Shown: one piece after another, positions 3,505 through 47,517 of the stretch | How the letters are laid out: the number at the start of each line of letters is the position of its first letter | How positions within the stretch are numbered: the stretch's first letter is position 1 | DNA from: Vulcanimicrobiota bacterium | Lineage (GTDB): Bacteria; Vulcanimicrobiota; Vulcanimicrobiia; Vulcanimicrobiales; Vulcanimicrobiaceae | Reading direction: 5' to 3' | Length of the DNA: 64,000 nt | NCBI GenBank assembly: GCA_963829005.1 | Contig: CAWHGU010000004.1 | Location: forward strand, 25,179 to 89,178 | Program-made: the position numbers and the translations under genes | The notes under the pieces: model-generated | What the model was told of the DNA's origin: nothing | Databases searched by the model: none | Seen by the model: only the letters and a program-made list of their open reading frames with translations

Positions 3505-6252
3505 ATGGCGACCCACGTGGAACCGGGAGCGCCGGCTGTGGCGCGCCCGACCGGCACGGTGACGTTCCTGTTTTCGGATATCGAAGGCAGCACCGTGCGC
3601 TGGGAGCGCGGCCGCGAGGCGATGGCCGCCGCGCTGGCACGCCACGACGCGCTCATGCGCGCGGCGATGGAAACCCGCGGCGCGTACGTCTTCAAGACGA
3701 TCGGCGACGCCTTTTGCGCGGCCTTCGCAACCGCGCCCGATGCCACTGCCGCGGCGCTCGACGCGCAGCGGGCGCTGGCACGCGAAGATTTCTCGGCAGT
3801 CGAGGGATTGCGCGTGCGCATGGCGCTGCACGCGGGTAGCACCGACGAGCGCGAAGGCGACTACTTCGGCCCGACGGTCAATCGCGTCGCGCGGTTATTG
3901 GCGGCCGGGCACGGCGGCCAAGTGCTCCTCTCAGGTGCGTGCGCGGAACTACTCCAAGCTGAGCTGCCGCCGGAGTGCAGCTTACGCGATCTCGGCGAGC
4001 ACCGGCTCAAGGACCTCGCGCAGCCCGAACGCATCCACCAGCTGCTTGCACCCGACCTGATCGCCGACTTCCCGCCACTGCGTTCGCTCGAACACCTCTC
4101 GAACAACTTACCAGCACAGCTCAGCTCGTTTATCGGTCGCGAGACCGAGATCGCTGAGATCACCGCGCTCGTCGAGCGGCATCGCCTCGTTACGCTTGTC
4201 GGCTCGGGCGGCGTCGGCAAGACGCGCCTCTCTTTACAAGTGGCAGCCGATCTCATTGACGACTTAAGCGACGGCGTGTGGTTTGTCGAGCTCGCACCGC
4301 TGAGTAAGGGCGAGTACATTCCCACGACCGTCGCGTCGGCACTCAGCATTACGCTCCCGTCCGAAGGCGATCCGGTCGAGAACCTCGCGCGCGCGCTCAA
4401 AGGAAAACAGCTGCTGCTGATCTTCGACAACTGCGAGCATCTCGTCGCGCCGGCGGTGCACGCCATCTCCGCCATCCTGCACGCTGCGCCGAAGGTCACG
4501 GTGCTGGCATCGAGCCGCCAAGCTCTGGGCGTCGCCGGGGAAGCGACGTACCAAGTACCCTCGCTCGATCTCCCCACCGGCATCACGCTCTTCGTCGAGC
4601 GCGCGCGGGCCGCGAGCGCAACGTTCTCGCTCACCGACGAGAATGCGCCGGTGATCGCGGAGATCTGCCGGCGGCTCGACGGCATTGCGCTCGCGATCGA
4701 GCTGGCGGCGGCGCGGGTAAAGATGCTCGGCGTCAAACAACTGCGCGACCGACTCGACGAACGCTTCCGCGTGCTCACGGGCGGCGGGCGCAACGTGCTG
4801 CCGCGGCAACAAACGCTGCGGGCGATGATTGATTGGAGCCACGACCTGCTCGACGAGCGCGAGCGGGTGCTCTTCCGGCGGCTGGGGATATTCGTCGACG
4901 GGTTCACGCTTGAGGGAGCCATCGCCGTCGGAAGCGGCGATGAGAGCCTTGACGAGCTCGATGTCTTTGACGTGCTGGCGTCGCTCGTTGACAAGTCGCT
5001 GGTGCTGGCCGAGCCGCAGGGTGACGCGGTCCGCTACCGGCTGCTGGAATCAACGCACGCCTATGCGTTGGAGAAGCTGGAGGCTGCGGGCGAGCGCGAT
5101 CGCGTTGTGGACCGCCATCTGCGCTATCTGCGCGACGGGTTCGCAGAGTTGCTGGAAGAACGCGAGCGGACCGCACGACATTCCGACTTCGATGCAAGGC
5201 TGAAGACGGAACTGGAGGACGTGCGCTCCGCCCTCGACGGCGCGTTGGCACGCTCGACGGTCGTCGACGGCGCCGACCTGCTCGCCAACATTGGCGGGGG
5301 TTGGCGATCCTTCGGGCTCGATGCCGAAGGCATGGCGCGCTGTGAGGCGTATCTCGCGGCGCTCCCGGCGGACGAGTCGCGGCTGCGCGCTCGGCTGTTG
5401 ATCGCGTTGGAGTACTTGCTTAGTAATTCCGGCCGGCTAGAGCAGGCCTTCCAGCTGGCGACCGAAGCGGTCGCGCAGGCGCGGGCAAGCGGCGATGCCC
5501 GGGTCCGCGCTGCGGCGCTGGTCCGGTATTCGTATATCGCGACGAAGCTTCATCGGCTCGACGACGCGGAGGAGGCGTTAGCGCAAGCCGAAGCGTTTCC
5601 AGGGGCCTCGGCGAAGTTTCGCATTGACTTGCTCCAATGCCGTGGAAACTTAAGTATGTTCCGTGGCGATCTCGAGACGGCGGCGCGCGTGCATGAGCAG
5701 CTCCGCAAGGCGGCCCACTCGCTCGCAAACGTCCGCAGCCAGCATTTGGCGGCGTGGAACCTCGCGGAGATCGAACACCAGCGCGGTCAGACGCAGCAAG
5801 CGATCGCGATCGCTCGCGAGGTCCTTCCCGCGCTGCGATCCGGCACCGATACAGGCATGCTCGCTAGCCTGCTCGCCAATCTCGCAGGCTATCTCGTCGC
5901 GGTTGACGATTTTCCGGGCGCGGTCGCGGCGGCCCGCGAATCGATCGGAATCCACGCGGCGCGCGAGCCGGACCATGCCTACGTCGCGATGGCGATCGAG
6001 CACCTGGCGCTCGCCGTCGCGCTGCACGGCGATTGTGCCCGAGCGGGCATGCTCGAAGGCTACGCCGACGATGCGTTTGCGCGACACGGATTCAAGCGCG
6101 AGTTCACCGAGACGACGACCTACGACCGCCTCACCGCACTCCTGCGCGAAACCCTCAAGCCCGACGAACTCGCACGACTGATGATGGAGGGCGCTGCACT
6201 TAATCCGGAGGCTGCGATCGCACTCGCGCTTGAGGATCACGAATCGCAATAG
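3505..6252 (+). CDS. class III adenylate/guanylate cyclase domain fused to NB-ARC-type STAND ATPase and TPR array (915 aa)
   Basis: Cyclase motifs FLFSDIEGST, VFKTIGDAF and GPTVNRVARL. Walker A GSGGVGKTRL and Walker B LLLIFDNCEH. C-terminal helical repeats. Confidence 0.85.
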   Translation: MATHVEPGAPAVARPTGTVTFLFSDIEGSTVRWERGREAMAAALARHDALMRAAMETRGAYVFKTIGDAFCAAFATAPDATAAALDAQRALAREDFSAVEGLRVRMALHAGSTDEREGDYFGPTVNRVARLLAAGHGGQVLLSGACAELLQAELPPECSLRDLGEHRLKDLAQPERIHQLLAPDLIADFPPLRSLEHLSNNLPAQLSSFIGRETEIAEITALVERHRLVTLVGSGGVGKTRLSLQVAADLIDDLSDGVWFVELAPLSKGEYIPTTVASALSITLPSEGDPVENLARALKGKQLLLIFDNCEHLVAPAVHAISAILHAAPKVTVLASSRQALGVAGEATYQVPSLDLPTGITLFVERARAASATFSLTDENAPVIAEICRRLDGIALAIELAAARVKMLGVKQLRDRLDERFRVLTGGGRNVLPRQQTLRAMIDWSHDLLDERERVLFRRLGIFVDGFTLEGAIAVGSGDESLDELDVFDVLASLVDKSLVLAEPQGDAVRYRLLESTHAYALEKLEAAGERDRVVDRHLRYLRDGFAELLEERERTARHSDFDARLKTELEDVRSALDGALARSTVVDGADLLANIGGGWRSFGLDAEGMARCEAYLAALPADESRLRARLLIALEYLLSNSGRLEQAFQLATEAVAQARASGDARVRAAALVRYSYIATKLHRLDDAEEALAQAEAFPGASAKFRIDLLQCRGNLSMFRGDLETAARVHEQLRKAAHSLANVRSQHLAAWNLAEIEHQRGQTQQAIAIAREVLPALRSGTDTGMLASLLANLAGYLVAVDDFPGAVAAARESIGIHAAREPDHAYVAMAIEHLALAVALHGDCARAGMLEGYADDAFARHGFKREFTETTTYDRLTALLRETLKPDELARLMMEGAALNPEAAIALALEDHESQ

Positions 6253-40637: not shown

Positions 40638-40847
40638 CGGAGGGAGAATAGCCTTGGCGGCATCCGGCGAGTCGTGCCGCGCCAGGGAGATCTTTCGGGA
40701 GACATACTTCAACAAGCTCAAGTGGGCGAATGCGACGCAATCGTCATGGCCAGCCATGCCCGGGACGGCCTTTCGCGCCTCACCGAGGGCAGCGTTGCCG
40801 AAACAGTGATCCGGTACAGCGACCTCCCGGTCGTCGTTCTGCGCTAG
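40638..40847 (+). pseudogene. universal stress protein C-terminal remnant
   Basis: GDILQQAQVGECDAIVMASHARDGLSRLTEGSVAETVIRYSDLPVVVLR is the USP ATP-binding C-terminal half. The frame opens directly at the ABM stop, and there is no N-terminal half. Confidence 0.5.
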
Positions 40848-42009: not shown

Positions 42010-42180
42010 CCTTACTCTCCTTGTGAAACGGGCTATTGGGAACTAGAGCCGATGTTCTTGCATTGCGCTGTCGCTCGGTCGCTTGCTCGACCGAACTGTC
42101 CGCGAGAGTAGCGACAGGGTTGCGTGCCGCAGCGGCAAAGCTTCAGCCCAATTTTAGCCACCTCGTCGCGGAGGGCCAGC

Positions 42181-42786
42181 ATGGATCGCGTCATCAACAT
42201 CTGGGCCGACGTTATTTGACCGTTTTGCTACCTCGGCTCAGTTTGGGCTGAAGAAGCGGCACGAGAATTGCGGGCCGATCTGCGTTGGCTTCCGTTTGAG
42301 ATTCATCCGGACACGCCGCCCGAAGGGGCACCGAAGCCGGTTCCGCCGGCGGATTGGCCGCGGGTTCGCGCGAGGCTCGAGCGTCTGGCGCGAGAGGTCG
42401 GGCTTCCGATCGACCCGCCGCAACGTAACGTAAACTCGCGTTTCGCGCTAGAGACGGCCGAGCTCGTGCGAGCCACGAGGGACGACGACGCTGCGGGCGC
42501 TTTTTATCACGACGCTTCGCGCGAGTTCTTCACCCGACACGCCGATGTCTCGAAACTCGAGGCCATCGCCCCCATCGCCGAACGCTTCGGCATCTCAGCT
42601 TCGGACGTGGAGGTCGCCTGGCGCGAACGACGGTTCTCTCACGCCGTCGACGCCTCTATCCAAGAGGCACACAAGGCCGGCGTCACCGGCGTCCCCGCCA
42701 TGGGATGGCCGCATCGGCGCGCGATCGTCGGAATGATGCGACCCGAGGATCTCGTAGGATACCTCCGCGACCAAGCATCAGGTTAA
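42181..42786 (+). CDS. DsbA/FrnE-like thiol oxidoreductase with TGA (42217-42219) in place of the first Cys of CxxC: selenoprotein candidate or nonsense pseudogene
   Basis: MDRVINIWADVI-TGA-PFCYLG...LRWLPFEIHPDTPPEG is one continuous frame of about 201 codons of normal family length. The hairpin at 42233-42251 has a GU-containing loop. Confidence 0.6.
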
Positions 42787-42940
42787 TGGCCAAGCTGACT
42801 TTTTACGAAAATCGCGCCGGAAGTAACTCAGCGACAAACGGCGCGCTGTGCTCGAAGAGGCGAAGGCGCTCGTCGGACGCGAGGTCGGCTATGCATAACG
42901 CCGGGCCAGCGCCTCGAGCTCTCCAAGCGATATCTGGGTA

Positions 42941-43952
42941 TCAGTCCTCGGGCGGGACGGGCGCGTCGTTTTCGATCAAGCCCTCGGATCGAAGGTCCGA
43001 CCAAAATGCGGCCGGAATCCTCGTCTCGAGCGACGTGTAGTCCGCGAGCACCTGCTGCCGATTCGCGCAGCCGACGACCAGCGCTGCCGCGACATCCGGC
43101 GCACGAGAGAACCGCAGTGCGGCAGTGCGAAGATCCACGCCATATCGCGCCGCGACGAAGCGCAGCCGTTCGCGCTTCTCGACGGCCCACGCGGGAATCT
43201 TGTAGTTGTCTCTGCCGTAATTGAAGCGCGCACTGCCGCTGATGAAGCCCGCGTTGAGCGCTGAGCCGACGACAAACATCATTCCGCTTTCGCGCGCCTT
43301 TGGGAAGACCTCGTGCAGCGCCCTCGCGTGATCGATCAGTGAGTATTGACGCGCTAGGAGACACACGTTTGCGTCGGCGACGTCCATGAGCTTGAGGATC
43401 GGTTCGGGCGAGTTGACGCCGAGTCCCCAAGCCTTTGATCACGTCTTCGTCGCGCATCTTGCTCAGCGCCGGAAACGCGCCTTTGCGGGCGATCTCGAAC
43501 TGCTCTTCCCACGGTCCCGGCAGCCACGGATTGTCCGGCGAGAGATCGTGAACGAAGACGACGTCCAGCGCGTCGACGCCTAGGCGCTGTAAACTGTCTT
43601 CGATCGAGCGCTTGACGCCGTCGGAGGTGTAATCGTAGCGGAGGTTGTTCGGCGAAGGCGTGAATGGAAAGTACTCTTTCGCGTTGTTATCGCGCGACGC
43701 CGTGAGCAGCTTGCCGACCTTCGACGAAAGGACGTACTCGCGGCGCGTCTGCTTATGCAGAAAGTTGCCCAGACGCCGCTCCGCCAGCCCGAGACCGTAC
43801 CACGGCGACGTGTCGTAGTAGCGCACTCCGGCGTTCCAAGCGGCTTCGATCGTGGCGTACGCAACTTCGTCGGTGACGTATGCGAACTCGTTCCCGAACG
43901 GCACGCCGCCGAGGCCGAAGGTTCTCCCCGCAAAGATTTCAGATACATTCAT
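42941..43952 (-). pseudogene. aldo/keto reductase, frameshifted near 43425-43437
   Basis: N-terminal AKR motifs (FGLGGVPFGN, GVRYYDTSPWYG) in one frame. LGVNSPEPILKLMDVADANVCLLARQYSLIDH... and the C-terminus are in another. Deleting one G restores IKAWGLGVN. Confidence 0.7.
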
Positions 43953-45117: not shown

Positions 45118-47517
45118 TCACGCCGGCGCACCCGAGCGGTGGGCGCGCGTTGCAAGCCTAATAGCTTGCAGCTCGCTCATCGCCACGCCCTCGCGACCGA
45201 GCGCCGCGATCTCGTCGTCGCTAAGCGCCTGATGGAGCGACCTCACGAGCAATTCGTGCGTGTACCGCTCGGTGTTCTCGCGCCGGTATCCCGCTGCGAA
45301 TACGCCGTCGACAAAACCGAGCAGCTTTGCCGCCGTTGAGGCGTCGGCGTGCGCCATCATCGCCGCGAGATGCTGGATCGCGCAGGCGGCGATGCCGGCG
45401 TCGCCGGCCTCGCGAGCGTCGAAGGCGGCTTCTCGGGCAGCTGAGCGAGCCTCGCCCTCACGGCGCAGCTTGAGCAGGTACACGGCGAGGTTGGCTTTGA
45501 TATTTGCCCGGAGGCGCACGTTCTTCCGGGGCGGCCTGCTGGCGAGAAGCTCCTGGAGGCGCGACACGGCGCTTTCGATATCGCCGAGCGCAAATTCGGC
45601 CTCGGCAAGGTTGACTAACGTGACGCTAATGATTCGCTCGTCGCCTTCCCGGCGAGCCAGGGCGAGCGCCTCCAACATCGCCTTCCGCCCTTCCAGCGGA
45701 CGCCCCATCATTTCTAAGCTCACGGCGATCGATCCGAGAGTGCGCGCGACGCCGCGCCCATCGTCGTACTCTTTGCTCAGTTCGAGAGAGCGCTGCAGGT
45801 CGACATCGGCTTGCGCGAAATTTCCGAGACGCATGCATGCGACGCCGCGGCCGCGCAGCGCGCGCCCGACCCCGCCGAGATCTCCGAGCTCTTCGTAGAG
45901 CGTGAGCGCTCGCGCGGAGGCTTCGAAAGCTGCAGCGGGCATGAGAAGATCGCCGCGCATCGCCGCGATCGTCTCCCAGGCCATCGCCCGCAACGGCTTA
46001 GCGAGCGGAGCCCGCCCGTCGAGCGCGCGCTCCGCACGCCTCGCCGACTCGGCGCCTAGGCCGCGGTAGAGAAGAAACTCACGCATTCCCGTCAATAGGC
46101 GTACTCCGAGCGCGACGTCGCCGCTCTCGTCGATCGTCCACTCTAACGCACGACGCAAATTGTCATGATCTGCCTCGAGAGCGTCGTGCCATTCCTGCGT
46201 ACGCGAGTCCCCCGTTTGGACGAGCTTGAGATAGTACTGCGCGTGCCGCTCGGCCAGCTCGCCGATCGTCGCGCCGAGCCTCTCGAGAGCGTAGGCGCGC
46301 ATCATCTCGAGCAGCCGAAATCGCCGCGTTCGGCCGTGCCTCTCGCTGGTCAGCAACGATTTGTCGACGAGCGATCCAAGAAGATCGAGCACGCGAGACT
46401 CATGAACCGTCGGCCCCGCGCAGACGGCGAGCACAGCTTCAAACGAAAAGTCCGCTGGAAAGACGCCGAGGCGTGCAAAGAGCGACTGCTCTTCCGGCGC
46501 GAGCAGATCGTAGCTCCAATCGACGAGCGATCGCATCGTTTCGTGGCGTGCCAAACGCCCGCCGCCGGCCAGCACGGCAAAACGCTGTGATAAGAGCTCT
46601 TCGATGTCCGCCAGACCCAAGACCCGGACGCGCGCCGCCGCGAGCTCGATCGCCAGCGCGATCCCGTCGAGCCTTTTGCAGATTCGCTCGACGATGGGAA
46701 GGTCGCCATCGAGCGAAAACGACGCGTCCGCGCGCCGCGCGGCCTCGGAGAACAGCGCGACCGACGCGTCGACGCTGAGCGACGCCAGCCGGTACGTCTG
46801 TTCTCCCGCGATTCCGAGCGGCTGCCGGCTCGTCGCGAGGATCCGGACGTCCGGGCATTTGCCGGCGATTTTTTCGACGGCTGCCGCGGCCGCGTTCACG
46901 ACGTGTTCGCAGTTATCGAGAATCAGCAGCAGCTTCTTTCGCGAGAGCGCATCCGCAATCGCGTCGATGAGCGGCCGAACCGGACTCTCGCGAATGCCGA
47001 AGACGCCTGCGATCGTAGGATGGACTGCGCCCGAATCGCGCACGACGACGAGATCGACGAACCATGCTCCATCTTCCGCATCATCGAGCGCGCGGAATCC
47101 CAGCTCGACCGCCAACCGGGTCTTGCCGACCCCGCCCGCACCGGTCAGCGTGAGCACTCGAGCGCTTTCCATTAGGGCCGCGATGTCGGCGAGATCGTTC
47201 TCGCGCCCGAAAAGCGGCGACGTCAAGCGCGGCAGGTTGTGTTTTTTGGCTGCGCGCGCTTCCATGCGGCGCGGGCGCGAGGGGCGTCCCGCCGCGGCTT
47301 CGATGGCCTGGCGTTGCTGCGGTTGCAGTTGCAGCGCATCGAGGATCAATGCCAACGTTTCACGTTGCGGCGCCTTGTTGACCCCGCGCTCCAGCGCGCT
47401 GATGCCGTCGGCGCTCATCGCCGCGCGCTCGGCGAGGGCTGCCTGCGTGAGCTGCGCCTTGAGGCGAAACTCGCGTAACAGCGAGCCGAACGACGAGGGG
47501 TCGACGAGCCTTCGCAT
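45118..47517 (-). CDS. XRE-type HTH fused to NB-ARC-type STAND ATPase and TPR array (799 aa)
   Basis: LREFRLKAQLTQAALAERAAMSADGISALERG HTH, GAGGVGKTRLA Walker A, LLLILDNCEH Walker B. The central module is closely similar to 3505-6252. Confidence 0.85.
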   Translation of the reverse strand: MRRLVDPSSFGSLLREFRLKAQLTQAALAERAAMSADGISALERGVNKAPQRETLALILDALQLQPQQRQAIEAAAGRPSRPRRMEARAAKKHNLPRLTSPLFGRENDLADIAALMESARVLTLTGAGGVGKTRLAVELGFRALDDAEDGAWFVDLVVVRDSGAVHPTIAGVFGIRESPVRPLIDAIADALSRKKLLLILDNCEHVVNAAAAAVEKIAGKCPDVRILATSRQPLGIAGEQTYRLASLSVDASVALFSEAARRADASFSLDGDLPIVERICKRLDGIALAIELAAARVRVLGLADIEELLSQRFAVLAGGGRLARHETMRSLVDWSYDLLAPEEQSLFARLGVFPADFSFEAVLAVCAGPTVHESRVLDLLGSLVDKSLLTSERHGRTRRFRLLEMMRAYALERLGATIGELAERHAQYYLKLVQTGDSRTQEWHDALEADHDNLRRALEWTIDESGDVALGVRLLTGMREFLLYRGLGAESARRAERALDGRAPLAKPLRAMAWETIAAMRGDLLMPAAAFEASARALTLYEELGDLGGVGRALRGRGVACMRLGNFAQADVDLQRSLELSKEYDDGRGVARTLGSIAVSLEMMGRPLEGRKAMLEALALARREGDERIISVTLVNLAEAEFALGDIESAVSRLQELLASRPPRKNVRLRANIKANLAVYLLKLRREGEARSAAREAAFDAREAGDAGIAACAIQHLAAMMAHADASTAAKLLGFVDGVFAAGYRRENTERYTHELLVRSLHQALSDDEIAALGREGVAMSELQAIRLATRAHRSGAPA

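What the first reader, a model, noticed from the sequence alone, without database searches (positions are those of the whole stretch)
42181..42786. TGA exactly at the first Cys of the CxxC motif of a DsbA/FrnE-like gene: selenocysteine candidate
From ATG 42181 one frame reads MDRVINIWADVI-TGA-PFCYLGSVWAEEAARELRADLRWLPFEIHPDTPPEG… and continues to 42786 (about 201 codons, normal length for FrnE-type DsbA proteins). In this family the motif is W-x-D-x-x-C-P-x-C-Y-x-G, so the TGA (42217-42219) replaces the catalytic N-terminal Cys, giving U-P-F-C. Replacement of a redox Cys by UGA is the classic signature of bacterial selenoproteins, and I recall Sec forms of thioredoxin-fold oxidoreductases being reported in computational surveys.

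Fourteen nt downstream I can draw a 7-bp hairpin (42233-42251: UCGGCUC-AGUUU-GGGCUGA, two G:U pairs). Its loop carries G-U about 25 nt from the UGA, which is similar in position to the E. coli fdhF SECIS.

Caveat: this window holds several broken genes, so a TGC/TGT-to-TGA nonsense mutation is a real alternative.
Basis: partly seen in the sequence, partly recalled or inferred. Interest (0 to 1): 0.65.

Follow-up and report, generated by a model that had tools for sequence, protein, structure and literature searches.

The report
Selenocysteine-coding DsbA/FrnE-like oxidoreductase gene
The in-frame TGA is almost certainly a real selenocysteine codon in a cytoplasmic DsbA/FrnE-like thiol-disulfide oxidoreductase, a selenoprotein family known since 2005, here in a soil Eremiobacterota lineage where gene callers routinely truncate it.

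Summary
Window 42181-42786 (+) is one 201-codon DSBA-domain ORF (Pfam PF01323, E 1e-25). Its only interruption is TGA 42217-42219, at the first Cys of the CxxC motif, giving U-P-F-C.

It is not a nonsense mutation. Of the 80 closest species-representative genomes, 78 carry TGA at the same codon, one TGT and one CGA. Protein sequence is conserved on both sides, and 32 of those genes use TGA as their own stop.

A hairpin follows the TGA: 8-bp upper stem 42233-42240/42244-42251, GUU loop, 3-bp lower stem. It meets the published bacterial SECIS criteria in all 74 scorable TGA orthologues. Its synonymous sites are nearly frozen. It decays in the more diverged Cys forms.

Related Eremiobacterota also carry selD with TGA at its catalytic Cys, followed by a similar GUY-loop hairpin. 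That supports Sec decoding in the lineage.

selA, selB and tRNA-Sec could not be checked for this genome. No fully compensatory base-pair changes were seen.

DsbA-like UxxC selenoproteins (COG2761) were described in 2005, so this is a new member of a known kind. Interest is modest.

The parts
42170..42174 (+). Shine-Dalgarno-like GGAGG, 6 nt upstream of the ATG
   Evidence: Read directly from the sequence. It supports initiation at 42181, upstream of the TGA. Many orthologues instead have TGnTATGAT about 9 nt before the ATG.
42181..42786 (+). Complete coding sequence of the DsbA/FrnE-like selenoprotein: 201 codons including Sec13, then TAA stop at 42784-42786
   Evidence: Translation. Pfam DSBA E 1e-25 over residues 5-195. 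FrnE 5cnw/5cp1 E 2e-9. 80 orthologous loci aligned end to end by tblastn.
42217..42219 (+). Sec codon (UGA), residue 13, the first position of the U-P-F-C redox motif
   Evidence: TGA in 78 of 80 orthologues, TGT in L029, CGA in L019. Cys (TGT) in the full-length homologues P0001, P0007, P0044 and P0052.
42226..42228 (+). Cys16 codon (TGC), the resolving Cys of UxxC and the only Cys in the protein
   Evidence: Translation. The column is invariant Cys in all orthologues.
42227..42257 (+). SECIS-like stem-loop. Lower stem 42227-42229/42255-42257, upper stem 42233-42240/42244-42251, apical loop GUU 42241-42243 with G 25 nt from the U of UGA
   Evidence: MFE fold. The 31-nt hairpin alone is -12.2 kcal/mol. 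RNAalifold consensus of 79 sequences gives the same 11 pairs. 91.5% of cells are paired, against 26-56% for slid registers. Gly19 GGC is used in 100% and Leu18 CTC in 96% of orthologues, the lowest and third-lowest synonymous entropy among 52 conserved degenerate columns.
42694..42696 (+). Pro172 codon of the conserved G-V-P motif. By position in the thioredoxin fold it is inferred to be the cis-Pro that faces the active site
   Evidence: G170 and P172 are invariant in alignments A1 and A3. The AlphaFold model of the 79%-identical Cys form P0001 has a DsbA-like fold, with strand 173-175 directly after this Pro. The cis-Pro assignment is inference.

Best explanation
Window 42181-42786 encodes a cytoplasmic DsbA/FrnE-like thiol-disulfide oxidoreductase with no signal peptide. 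It has a thioredoxin fold with a helical insertion. Its nucleophilic active-site residue is selenocysteine (U13-P-F-C16).

Proposed mechanism (inferred). During translation, UGA 42217-42219 is decoded by Sec-tRNA(Sec), delivered by SelB. SelB is recruited by the stem-loop at 42227-42257. The G-U of that loop lies 25-26 nt from the UGA.

The mature protein would cycle between a selenol/thiol and a selenenylsulfide (U13-C16). It would reduce or isomerise disulfides or other oxidised thiols in the cytoplasm, as the Cys enzyme FrnE does, with the higher nucleophilicity of Sec.

Shown here: the conserved UGA, the Sec/Cys alternation, the conserved hairpin, the fold, and the presence of selD (including Sec-type selD) in the lineage.

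Inferred only: actual Sec insertion, SelB binding, and the physiological substrate.
For: (1) Orthologues. TGA sits at the same codon in 78 of 80 species-representative loci, at 50-89% protein identity. W8, D10 and V11 upstream and P14, C16, Y17, L18 and G19 downstream are invariant.

(2) Database signature. 111 of the top 120 protein clusters are N-terminally truncated (118-179 aa) with varying start points, as expected when gene callers stop at the TGA. Nine are full-length and read ...DV[IV]CPFCYLG.

(3) UGA is still a stop in these organisms. 32 of the 80 orthologues end in TGA. TGA closes 12 of 38 long open stretches in the window.

(4) The hairpin meets every criterion of the published bSECIS model. 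The criteria are a 3-9 nt loop, a 4-16 bp stem, G in the first two loop positions, 16-37 nt spacing and MFE <= -7.5 (PMC13188914). Here the loop is 3 nt, the upper stem is 8 bp, the loop reads GU, the spacing is 21 nt and the energy is -12.2 kcal/mol. All 74 scorable TGA orthologues pass.

(5) RNA-level constraint. Every substitution but two inside the upper stem keeps pairing (G-C to G-U, A-U to G-U). Synonymous entropy of the hairpin codons is far below the gene's median (permutation p about 0.001).

(6) The hairpin decays in diverged Cys forms. L085 loses the loop GU. L087 and L089 lose the 3' arm. The two Cys forms closest to the Sec forms (L029, L083) still keep it.

(7) Selenium machinery in the lineage. 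selD homologues occur in Eremiobacterota, with hits named V. alpinum, Ca. Elarobacter and Ca. Eremiobacteraeota. L065's 2.9-Mb contig carries both the TGA-DsbA gene and selD. L092, L093 and L094 selD have TGA at the catalytic Cys, followed by a 7-bp hairpin with a GUU/GUC loop. That hairpin is absent from Cys-type selD.

(8) Fold. The AlphaFold model of P0001 has pLDDT 90.3. Its best PDB match is FrnE 5cnw, TM 0.83.

(9) The family is already catalogued as a selenoprotein family.
Against: No selA, selB, selD or tRNA-Sec lies in the 64-kb window or in the 80 flanking loci. Their presence elsewhere in this genome could not be tested.

No base pair shows a change on both sides. Covariation statistics are therefore uninformative: 0 compensatory pairs, and shuffles equal the observed value.

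The hairpin energy in the single window sequence is not significant. The z-score is -0.28, and 20% of synonymous resamples are as stable. Part of the stem is dictated by the conserved peptide L-G-S-V-W-A-E.

No Rfam SECIS family matches.

The window has damaged genes next door, so inactivation of this particular copy by other means cannot be fully excluded. The ORF itself is intact.
Confidence: 0.85

Rival explanations
1. Pseudogene. A TGC/TGT-to-TGA nonsense mutation or a base-call error inactivated an ordinary Cys-type FrnE-like gene in a genome that has other broken genes.
For: Neighbouring genes are damaged. The aldo/keto reductase is frameshifted and only a USP fragment is open. TGA is one step from TGT or TGC.
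Against: 78 of 80 orthologues from different species and several phyla have the same TGA. The rest of the ORF is intact and full length. Purifying selection acts on both sides of the TGA. An independent error or mutation at the same base in 78 assemblies is not credible.
Confidence: 0.02
2. The UGA is recoded, but not to Sec. Options are near-cognate read-through (Trp, Cys or Arg) or a dedicated UCA-anticodon tRNA inserting Cys, with the hairpin acting as a read-through stimulator.
For: Sec insertion itself was not observed. selA, selB and selC were not found in any sequence held here. One orthologue has CGA (Arg) and several have TGT (Cys) at the site, so other residues can occupy it.
Against: The position is the catalytic Cys of a CxxC redox motif, the canonical context for Sec. 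The hairpin fits the SelB-type bSECIS model, including the loop G-U. The lineage has selD, and a second gene (selD itself) shows the same TGA-at-catalytic-Cys plus GUY-loop hairpin pattern. The family is an established selenoprotein family.
Confidence: 0.06
3. UGA terminates a 12-residue upstream peptide. The functional product is an N-terminally truncated protein started downstream (for example TTG 42268) and lacking the redox motif.
For: Automatic gene callers annotate exactly this: 118-179 aa products. A TTG at 42268 opens a 172-aa ORF.
Against: There is no conserved internal start, because the called starts differ widely (products of 118 to 179 aa). The 16 codons between the TGA and that start are among the most conserved in the gene and encode the rest of the active site (P14, C16, Y17, L18, G19 invariant). 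A truncated product would lose strand 1 and the start of helix 1 of the thioredoxin fold. The Pfam domain match begins at residue 5.
Confidence: 0.03
4. The nucleotide conservation after the TGA has a non-SECIS cause, such as protein constraint plus codon bias or a DNA-level element. The true recoding signal lies elsewhere.
For: There are no compensatory double changes. Synonymous resampling shows that the peptide sequence alone often gives stable folds. Two Cys forms keep the hairpin.
Against: Gly19 uses GGC in 100% of orthologues, while Gly49 in the same gene uses all four codons (entropy 1.96). Leu18 uses CTC in 96%, while other Leu columns have entropy 1.5-1.9. The only tolerated changes preserve pairing. 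Diverged Cys forms lose the structure. Position and loop match the bSECIS model.
Confidence: 0.04

Closest known systems
DsbA-like selenoprotein family ('DsbA-like protein form 1', COG2761/PF01323, UxxC). Zhang, Fomenko & Gladyshev 2005, Sargasso Sea (PMC1088965). Also found in Anaeromyxobacter, Desulfovibrio and Desulfotomaculum (PMC1794560). Listed in the 2026 review PMC13188914.
   Same: Same Pfam domain. Same UxxC motif, with Sec replacing the N-terminal Cys. The SECIS-like hairpin directly follows the UGA and has a G in a small apical loop. Cys homologues are widespread.
   Different: The published members come from marine metagenomes and mostly anaerobic Deltaproteobacteria and Clostridia. 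This clade is from soil and peat Eremiobacterota (Vulcanimicrobiota), with close copies labelled Acidobacteriota, Udaeobacter and Gemmatimonadales. No NCBIfam model recognises this clade, and databases hold it in truncated form.
FrnE (DR_0659) of Deinococcus radiodurans, a cytoplasmic DsbA-like disulfide oxidoreductase/isomerase (PDB 5cnw, 5cp1, 5xwh)
   Same: It is the closest solved structure by sequence (E 2e-9) and by fold (TM 0.83 for the 79%-identical Cys form). The W-x-D-x-x-C-P-x-C-Y-x-G active-site context is shared. Neither has a signal peptide.
   Different: FrnE has CPWC with Cys, whereas this protein has UPFC with Sec. FrnE is 260 aa. Entry 5cp1 is a C239S mutant, so FrnE has a Cys at 239. 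From my own knowledge, that Cys lies in a C-terminal CX4C tail. The window protein ends at residue 201 and has no Cys other than C16. Identity is only about 20%.
E. coli fdhF-type bacterial SECIS / the bSECIS consensus model
   Same: The hairpin lies inside the coding region directly after the UGA. The apical loop is small, starts with G-U, and is 21 nt from the UGA. The upper stem is 8 bp. Energy is below -7.5 kcal/mol.
   Different: There is no primary-sequence similarity and no Rfam hit. A bulged U, which I recall in fdhF, is not evident. Instead there is an internal loop between the 3-bp lower stem and the 8-bp upper stem. SelB binding is untested.
Sec-containing SelD (selenophosphate synthetase selenoprotein)
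   Same: In related Eremiobacterota, selD has TGA at its catalytic Cys and a stem capped by a GUU/GUC triloop. This is the same loop sequence as in the DsbA-like gene.
   Different: It is a different protein family. The hairpin loop sits 33 nt after the UGA rather than 21 nt. It is not present in this window.

Membership tests
Bacterial selenoprotein gene (Sec-UGA) | In-frame UGA aligned with a catalytic or redox Cys of homologues (Sec/Cys pair) | tested here: met
   TGA 42217-42219 aligns with the first Cys of CPFC in P0001, P0002, P0004-P0007, P0044, P0048 and P0052, and with CPWC of FrnE.
Bacterial selenoprotein gene (Sec-UGA) | UGA conserved in orthologues from other organisms, with coding conservation on both sides | tested here: met
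   78 of 80 loci carry TGA. Residues flanking it are invariant on both sides.
Bacterial selenoprotein gene (Sec-UGA) | bSECIS element directly downstream: 3-9 nt loop, 4-16 bp upper stem, G in the first two loop positions, 16-37 nt from the UGA, MFE <= -7.5 kcal/mol (PMC13188914) | tested here: met
   Loop GUU, 8-bp stem, 21-nt spacing, -12.2 kcal/mol. 74 of 74 TGA orthologues pass. Structure is supported by conservation and wobble-only changes, not by compensatory covariation.
Bacterial selenoprotein gene (Sec-UGA) | Sec machinery (selA, selB, selC/tRNA-Sec, selD) in the same genome | not testable with these tools
   None lies in the window or in 94 fetched loci, except selD in relatives. Indirect support: selD on the same 2.9-Mb contig as a TGA-DsbA (L065/L091), and Sec-type selD in the clade.
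Bacterial selenoprotein gene (Sec-UGA) | Selenium physically incorporated at the UGA position | not testable with these tools
   Needs 75Se labelling or mass spectrometry.
DsbA-like selenoprotein form 1 (COG2761/PF01323, UxxC) | PF01323 DSBA domain | tested here: met
   E 1e-25, 91 bits against a cut-off of 25.6, covering profile positions 2-190 of 191.
DsbA-like selenoprotein form 1 (COG2761/PF01323, UxxC) | UxxC motif at the N-terminus of helix 1 | tested here: met
   U13-P-F-C16. In the model of the Cys form, strand 1 is residues 4-9 and helix 1 starts at residue 14.
DsbA-like selenoprotein form 1 (COG2761/PF01323, UxxC) | Sequence relatedness to the published members (AACY01178397, NIP15863.1, Anaeromyxobacter and Desulfovibrio proteins) | not tested
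Membership rests on the shared domain, motif and COG-level description.
FrnE-type cytoplasmic disulfide oxidoreductase (D. radiodurans) | DsbA-like fold (thioredoxin domain plus helical insertion), no signal peptide | tested here: met
   Foldseek's best hit is 5cnw, TM 0.83, for the 79%-identical P0001. The N-terminus runs straight into strand 1.
FrnE-type cytoplasmic disulfide oxidoreductase (D. radiodurans) | C-terminal tail carrying a second Cys pair (Cys239 region; recalled from the FrnE literature) | tested here: not met
   The protein ends at residue 201, against 260 in FrnE. C16 is its only Cys. It is therefore FrnE-like in fold, not a FrnE orthologue.
Periplasmic DsbA (E. coli type) | Signal peptide and a CPHC-type motif, acting as a periplasmic oxidant | tested here: not met
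   There is no N-terminal hydrophobic leader. Classical DsbAs are only weak structural matches, E about 1e-3 and TM 0.5-0.6.

The most novel reading that the evidence does not exclude
Eremiobacterota (Vulcanimicrobiota) and co-resident soil Acidobacteriota, Verrucomicrobiota and Gemmatimonadota may share an almost fixed Sec form of a FrnE-like oxidoreductase, carried with a nucleotide-invariant, 'portable' SECIS hairpin that has moved between phyla by horizontal transfer.

This would add a predominantly aerobic soil phylum, for which no open-access paper in the searched library mentions selenocysteine, to the Sec users. At least two selenoproteins would be involved: the DsbA-like protein and SelD.

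A further, weaker reading is that the protein works in selenium trafficking. In one relative its Cys form sits directly downstream of selD and next to a NifS-like gene.
Probability: 0.25. Interest if true: 0.45.

Novelty: new member of a known kind. Interest (0 to 1): 0.3.

Why it matters
It corrects an annotation error that affects many entries. In the top 120 protein clusters for this family, 111 are stored as N-terminally truncated 'DsbA family' or 'hypothetical' proteins without their active site. No NCBIfam model currently rescues them.

It also gives sequence-level evidence that Eremiobacterota, an abundant and mostly uncultured soil and peat phylum, decode UGA as Sec in at least two genes. 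A nearly invariant hairpin is available to use as a search model.

It does not change what is known about how selenoproteins work.

Tried and rejected
(1) Sec machinery nearby. tblastn with E. coli SelA, SelB and SelD, and ARAGORN, on the window and all fetched loci gave only EF-Tu (L053, L057) and selD in relatives. There was no tRNA-Sec.

(2) Rfam gave no SECIS or tRNA-Sec hit at gathering threshold over the window. Around the site at E<=10 it gave only a chance lncRNA match.

(3) Covariation statistics were uninformative because the stem columns hardly vary.

(4) Single-sequence folding significance was not significant.

(5) Looking up the window's own truncated product in public assemblies found nothing on record, so the source genome was not identified.

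(6) Conserved operon partners: none. Synteny holds only among the three or four closest relatives (L001, L055, L058). The recurring 'clusters' were antisense or off-frame ORFs of the gene itself.

(7) A regex scan for other in-frame TGA candidates in the window gave 114 hits, which is noise in GC-rich DNA. An all-against-all search of TGA-centred peptides across all loci recovered only the DsbA site plus off-frame artefacts.

(8) Matching contig lengths between the selD hits and the DsbA loci linked only one genome, L065.

(9) Literature search for selenocysteine in Eremiobacterota found nothing relevant.

(10) The promoter and terminator consensus scan around the gene found none.

(11) A global UGA reassignment was considered and rejected, because TGA ends 32 of the 80 orthologues and many long ORFs in the window.

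Full report
**Observation.** From ATG 42181 to TAA 42784-42786 one frame reads MDRVINIWADVI*PFCYLGSVWAEEAAR... That is 201 codons with a single internal stop, TGA 42217-42219. A GGAGG lies 6 nt upstream of the ATG.

With the TGA read as Cys, residues 5-195 match Pfam DSBA (PF01323) over profile positions 2-190 of 191 (E 1e-25). The closest solved structure is D. radiodurans FrnE (E 2e-9). There, IWADVI[U]PFCYLG aligns with IWSDIACPWCYIG.

The upper stem is 42233-42240/42244-42251, the loop is GUU, and a 3-bp lower stem lies at 42227-42229/42255-42257.

**Not a nonsense mutation.** A search of about 5.8 billion proteins gave 297 relatives. Of the 120 best, 111 are truncated at the N-terminus (118-179 aa, with many different start points). 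Nine are full length and read ...DV[IV]CPFCYLG. That is what gene callers produce when they meet an in-frame TGA.

I fetched the 80 best loci from one-genome-per-species GTDB representatives and read the homologous codon. It is TGA in 78, TGT in one (L029) and CGA in one (L019).

The carriers are mostly Eremiobacterota/Vulcanimicrobiota MAGs (Ca. Cybelea, Tumulicola, Lustribacter, Elarobacter; taxonomy). Some records are labelled Acidobacteriota, including a closed 6.57-Mb chromosome. Others are labelled Udaeobacter, Gemmatimonadales or Binatia.

Protein identity to the window ranges from 50 to 89%. Even so, W8, D10 and V11 before the TGA, and P14, C16, Y17, L18 and G19 after it, are invariant. 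The neighbours closest to the window (L001, L055, L058) share synteny and are Eremiobacterota.

UGA is not reassigned in these organisms. 32 of the 80 orthologues end with TGA themselves. TGA closes 12 of 38 long open stretches in the window.

The 80 loci are the relatives nearest to a Sec-form query. The 78:1:1 ratio therefore describes this clade, not the whole FrnE-like family.

**The hairpin.** I aligned the 48 nt from the UGA in 79 sequences (A2). RNAalifold returns the same structure as the single-sequence fold.

Within the 8-bp upper stem, all variation but two cells keeps pairing. G-C becomes G-U in 21 sequences and A-U becomes G-U in 39. G25 and U26 of the loop are invariant. 91.5% of cells pair, against 26-56% when the 3' arm is slid by 1-3 nt.

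No pair changes on both sides, so formal covariation is nil.

The better test is synonymous variation. There are 52 columns with a conserved four- or six-fold degenerate residue. Among them, Gly19 (GGC in 100%) has the lowest codon entropy and Leu18 (CTC in 96%) the third lowest. Ser20 and Val21 each use only two codons. The median entropy elsewhere is 1.35 bits (permutation p about 0.001).

The published bSECIS model asks for a 3-9 nt loop, a 4-16 bp stem, G in the first two loop positions, 16-37 nt spacing and MFE <= -7.5 kcal/mol (PMC13188914). The window and all 74 scorable TGA orthologues meet it. The window has a 3-nt loop GUU, an 8-bp stem, 21-nt spacing and -12.2 kcal/mol.

Caveats apply. 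In the window alone the fold is not more stable than shuffles (z -0.28). It is also no more stable than 20% of synonymous resamples. Rfam has no matching family.

**Cys forms as a control.** I fetched DNA for four full-length Cys homologues. All use TGT.

- L083, the nearest, keeps the hairpin, as does L029.
- L085 keeps the stem, but its loop GU has become AC.
- L087 and L089 have lost the 3' arm through changes of A23 and E24 to I-Q and I-D.

So the hairpin is frozen where the UGA is present and drifts where Cys has replaced it for some time.

**Selenium machinery.** The window has no tRNA gene and no SelA, SelB or SelD homologue. Neither do the 80 flanks. The only 'SelB' hits were EF-Tu.

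In L089 a selD homologue (41% identical to E. coli SelD, E 3e-68) lies directly upstream of the Cys-form DsbA-like gene. A NifS-like aminotransferase gene is divergently transcribed from it.

Searching with that SelD returned hundreds of close relatives. Some are named Vulcanimicrobium alpinum, Ca. Elarobacter and Ca. Eremiobacteraeota. Very many are 311-314 aa, which is N-terminally truncated.

Their DNA shows why. L092, L093 and L094 have TGA at the catalytic Cys (..AG-U-ASKVG). A 7-bp stem capped by GUU or GUC follows, 33 nt after the UGA. Cys-type selD (L089, L091) lacks that hairpin.

One genome links the two genes directly. The 2,900,357-bp contig of L065 carries the TGA-DsbA and a Cys-type selD.

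This is good lineage-level evidence for Sec decoding. selA, selB and tRNA-Sec were never seen, and the window's own genome could not be searched.

**Function.** The AlphaFold model of the 79%-identical Cys form P0001 is confident (pLDDT 90.3, pTM 0.88). It shows strand 4-9, helix 1 from residue 14, a helical insertion, and the C-terminal strand-strand-helix of a DsbA-like fold.

The best structural neighbours are FrnE (TM 0.83) and SCO1869. HCCA isomerase/kappa-GST, YjbH and DsbM follow. All of these are cytoplasmic members of the DsbA-like superfamily. Classical periplasmic DsbAs match only weakly.

There is no signal peptide. U13 and C16 are the only redox residues. The longer C-terminal region of FrnE, which includes Cys239, is absent.

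I therefore read the protein as a cytoplasmic selenol/thiol oxidoreductase or isomerase that cycles through a U13-C16 selenenylsulfide. The substrate is unknown. No operon partner is conserved.

**Comparison with what is known.** DsbA-like selenoproteins (COG2761, UxxC) were first reported from the Sargasso Sea: nine sequences, each with a SECIS-like hairpin having a G in a small loop (PMC1088965). They were later found in Anaeromyxobacter, Desulfovibrio and Desulfotomaculum (PMC1794560). The 2026 review lists them as 'DsbA-like protein form 1, PF01323, UxxC' (PMC13188914).

The kind is therefore known. What is new is the clade and its host range. No paper in the searched library connects Eremiobacterota with selenocysteine. 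No NCBIfam model captures these proteins, so they sit in databases truncated.

**Verdict.** I put the probability that this UGA encodes Sec at about 0.85. It is a new member of a known selenoprotein family. Interest is modest (0.3), mainly for annotation and for the selenium biology of a poorly known soil phylum.

Noticed in passing
L092:9953-9955; L093:9944-9946; L094 (same gene as L093): selD of Eremiobacterota-type relatives has an in-frame TGA at the catalytic Cys (..AG-U-ASKVG). A 7-bp stem with a GUU/GUC triloop follows, at nt 30-46 after the UGA. Cys-type selD (L089, L091) lacks this hairpin. More than 100 database SelD clusters of this clade are stored truncated at 311-314 aa.
   Followed up: partly
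L089:559-3597 (NCBI GCA_037975565.1): The gene order here is a NifS-like aminotransferase (divergent), then selD, a 62-aa ORF, and the Cys-form DsbA/FrnE-like gene. This hints at a link between the protein and selenium metabolism. The adjacency is not conserved in L091-L094. The NifS-like/selD divergent pair is conserved.
   Followed up: partly
L019:6035-6037: One orthologue (Verrucomicrobiae MAG) has CGA (Arg) where the others have TGA. It also has CTG instead of CTC in the stem. This is either an inactivated copy or a base-call error.
   Followed up: no
L029:6037, L083:3037, L085:3037, L087:3061, L089:3031: All five Cys-form loci use TGT at the Sec position, although the neighbouring Cys16 codon is TGC in 83% of orthologues. 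This fits recent, possibly independent TGA-to-TGT conversions.
   Followed up: no
L002, L004, L005, L007, L009, L010, L013, L015, L017, L021, L026 (about 20 nt upstream of the ATG near 6001): Many orthologues have a conserved TGnTATGAT (extended -10-like box) ending about 9 nt before the ATG and no Shine-Dalgarno sequence. That suggests a leaderless or near-leaderless mRNA. The window instead has GGAGG at 42170-42174.
   Followed up: no
window 42828-43952 (-): The aldo/keto reductase gene is frameshifted. An intact orthologue (L055) aligns in frame -3 down to about 43420 and in frame -1 from 43435 onward. This is either a real pseudogene or an indel error of a long-read assembly.
   Followed up: partly
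window 40674-40847 (+): Only the C-terminal third of a universal stress protein is open (Pfam Usp positions 88-141 of 141). Relatives L001 and L055 show additional similarity upstream, so this is another damaged or mis-assembled gene.
   Followed up: no
L011, L012, L020 (OY969419.1, closed 6.57-Mb chromosome), L022, L035, L042, L052; L018/L034/L044; L029/L043/L051: Copies labelled Acidobacteriota, Udaeobacter and Gemmatimonadales are 71-83% identical to the Eremiobacterota protein and carry the same hairpin nucleotide for nucleotide. That suggests horizontal transfer of the selenoprotein gene together with its SECIS, or mislabelled bins for the short contigs.
   Followed up: no
window 45118-47517 (-): This is a large HTH-AAA(NB-ARC-like)-TPR regulator gene of the STAND/SARP-like type. 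It lies two genes downstream of the DsbA-like gene and is unrelated to the finding.
   Followed up: no
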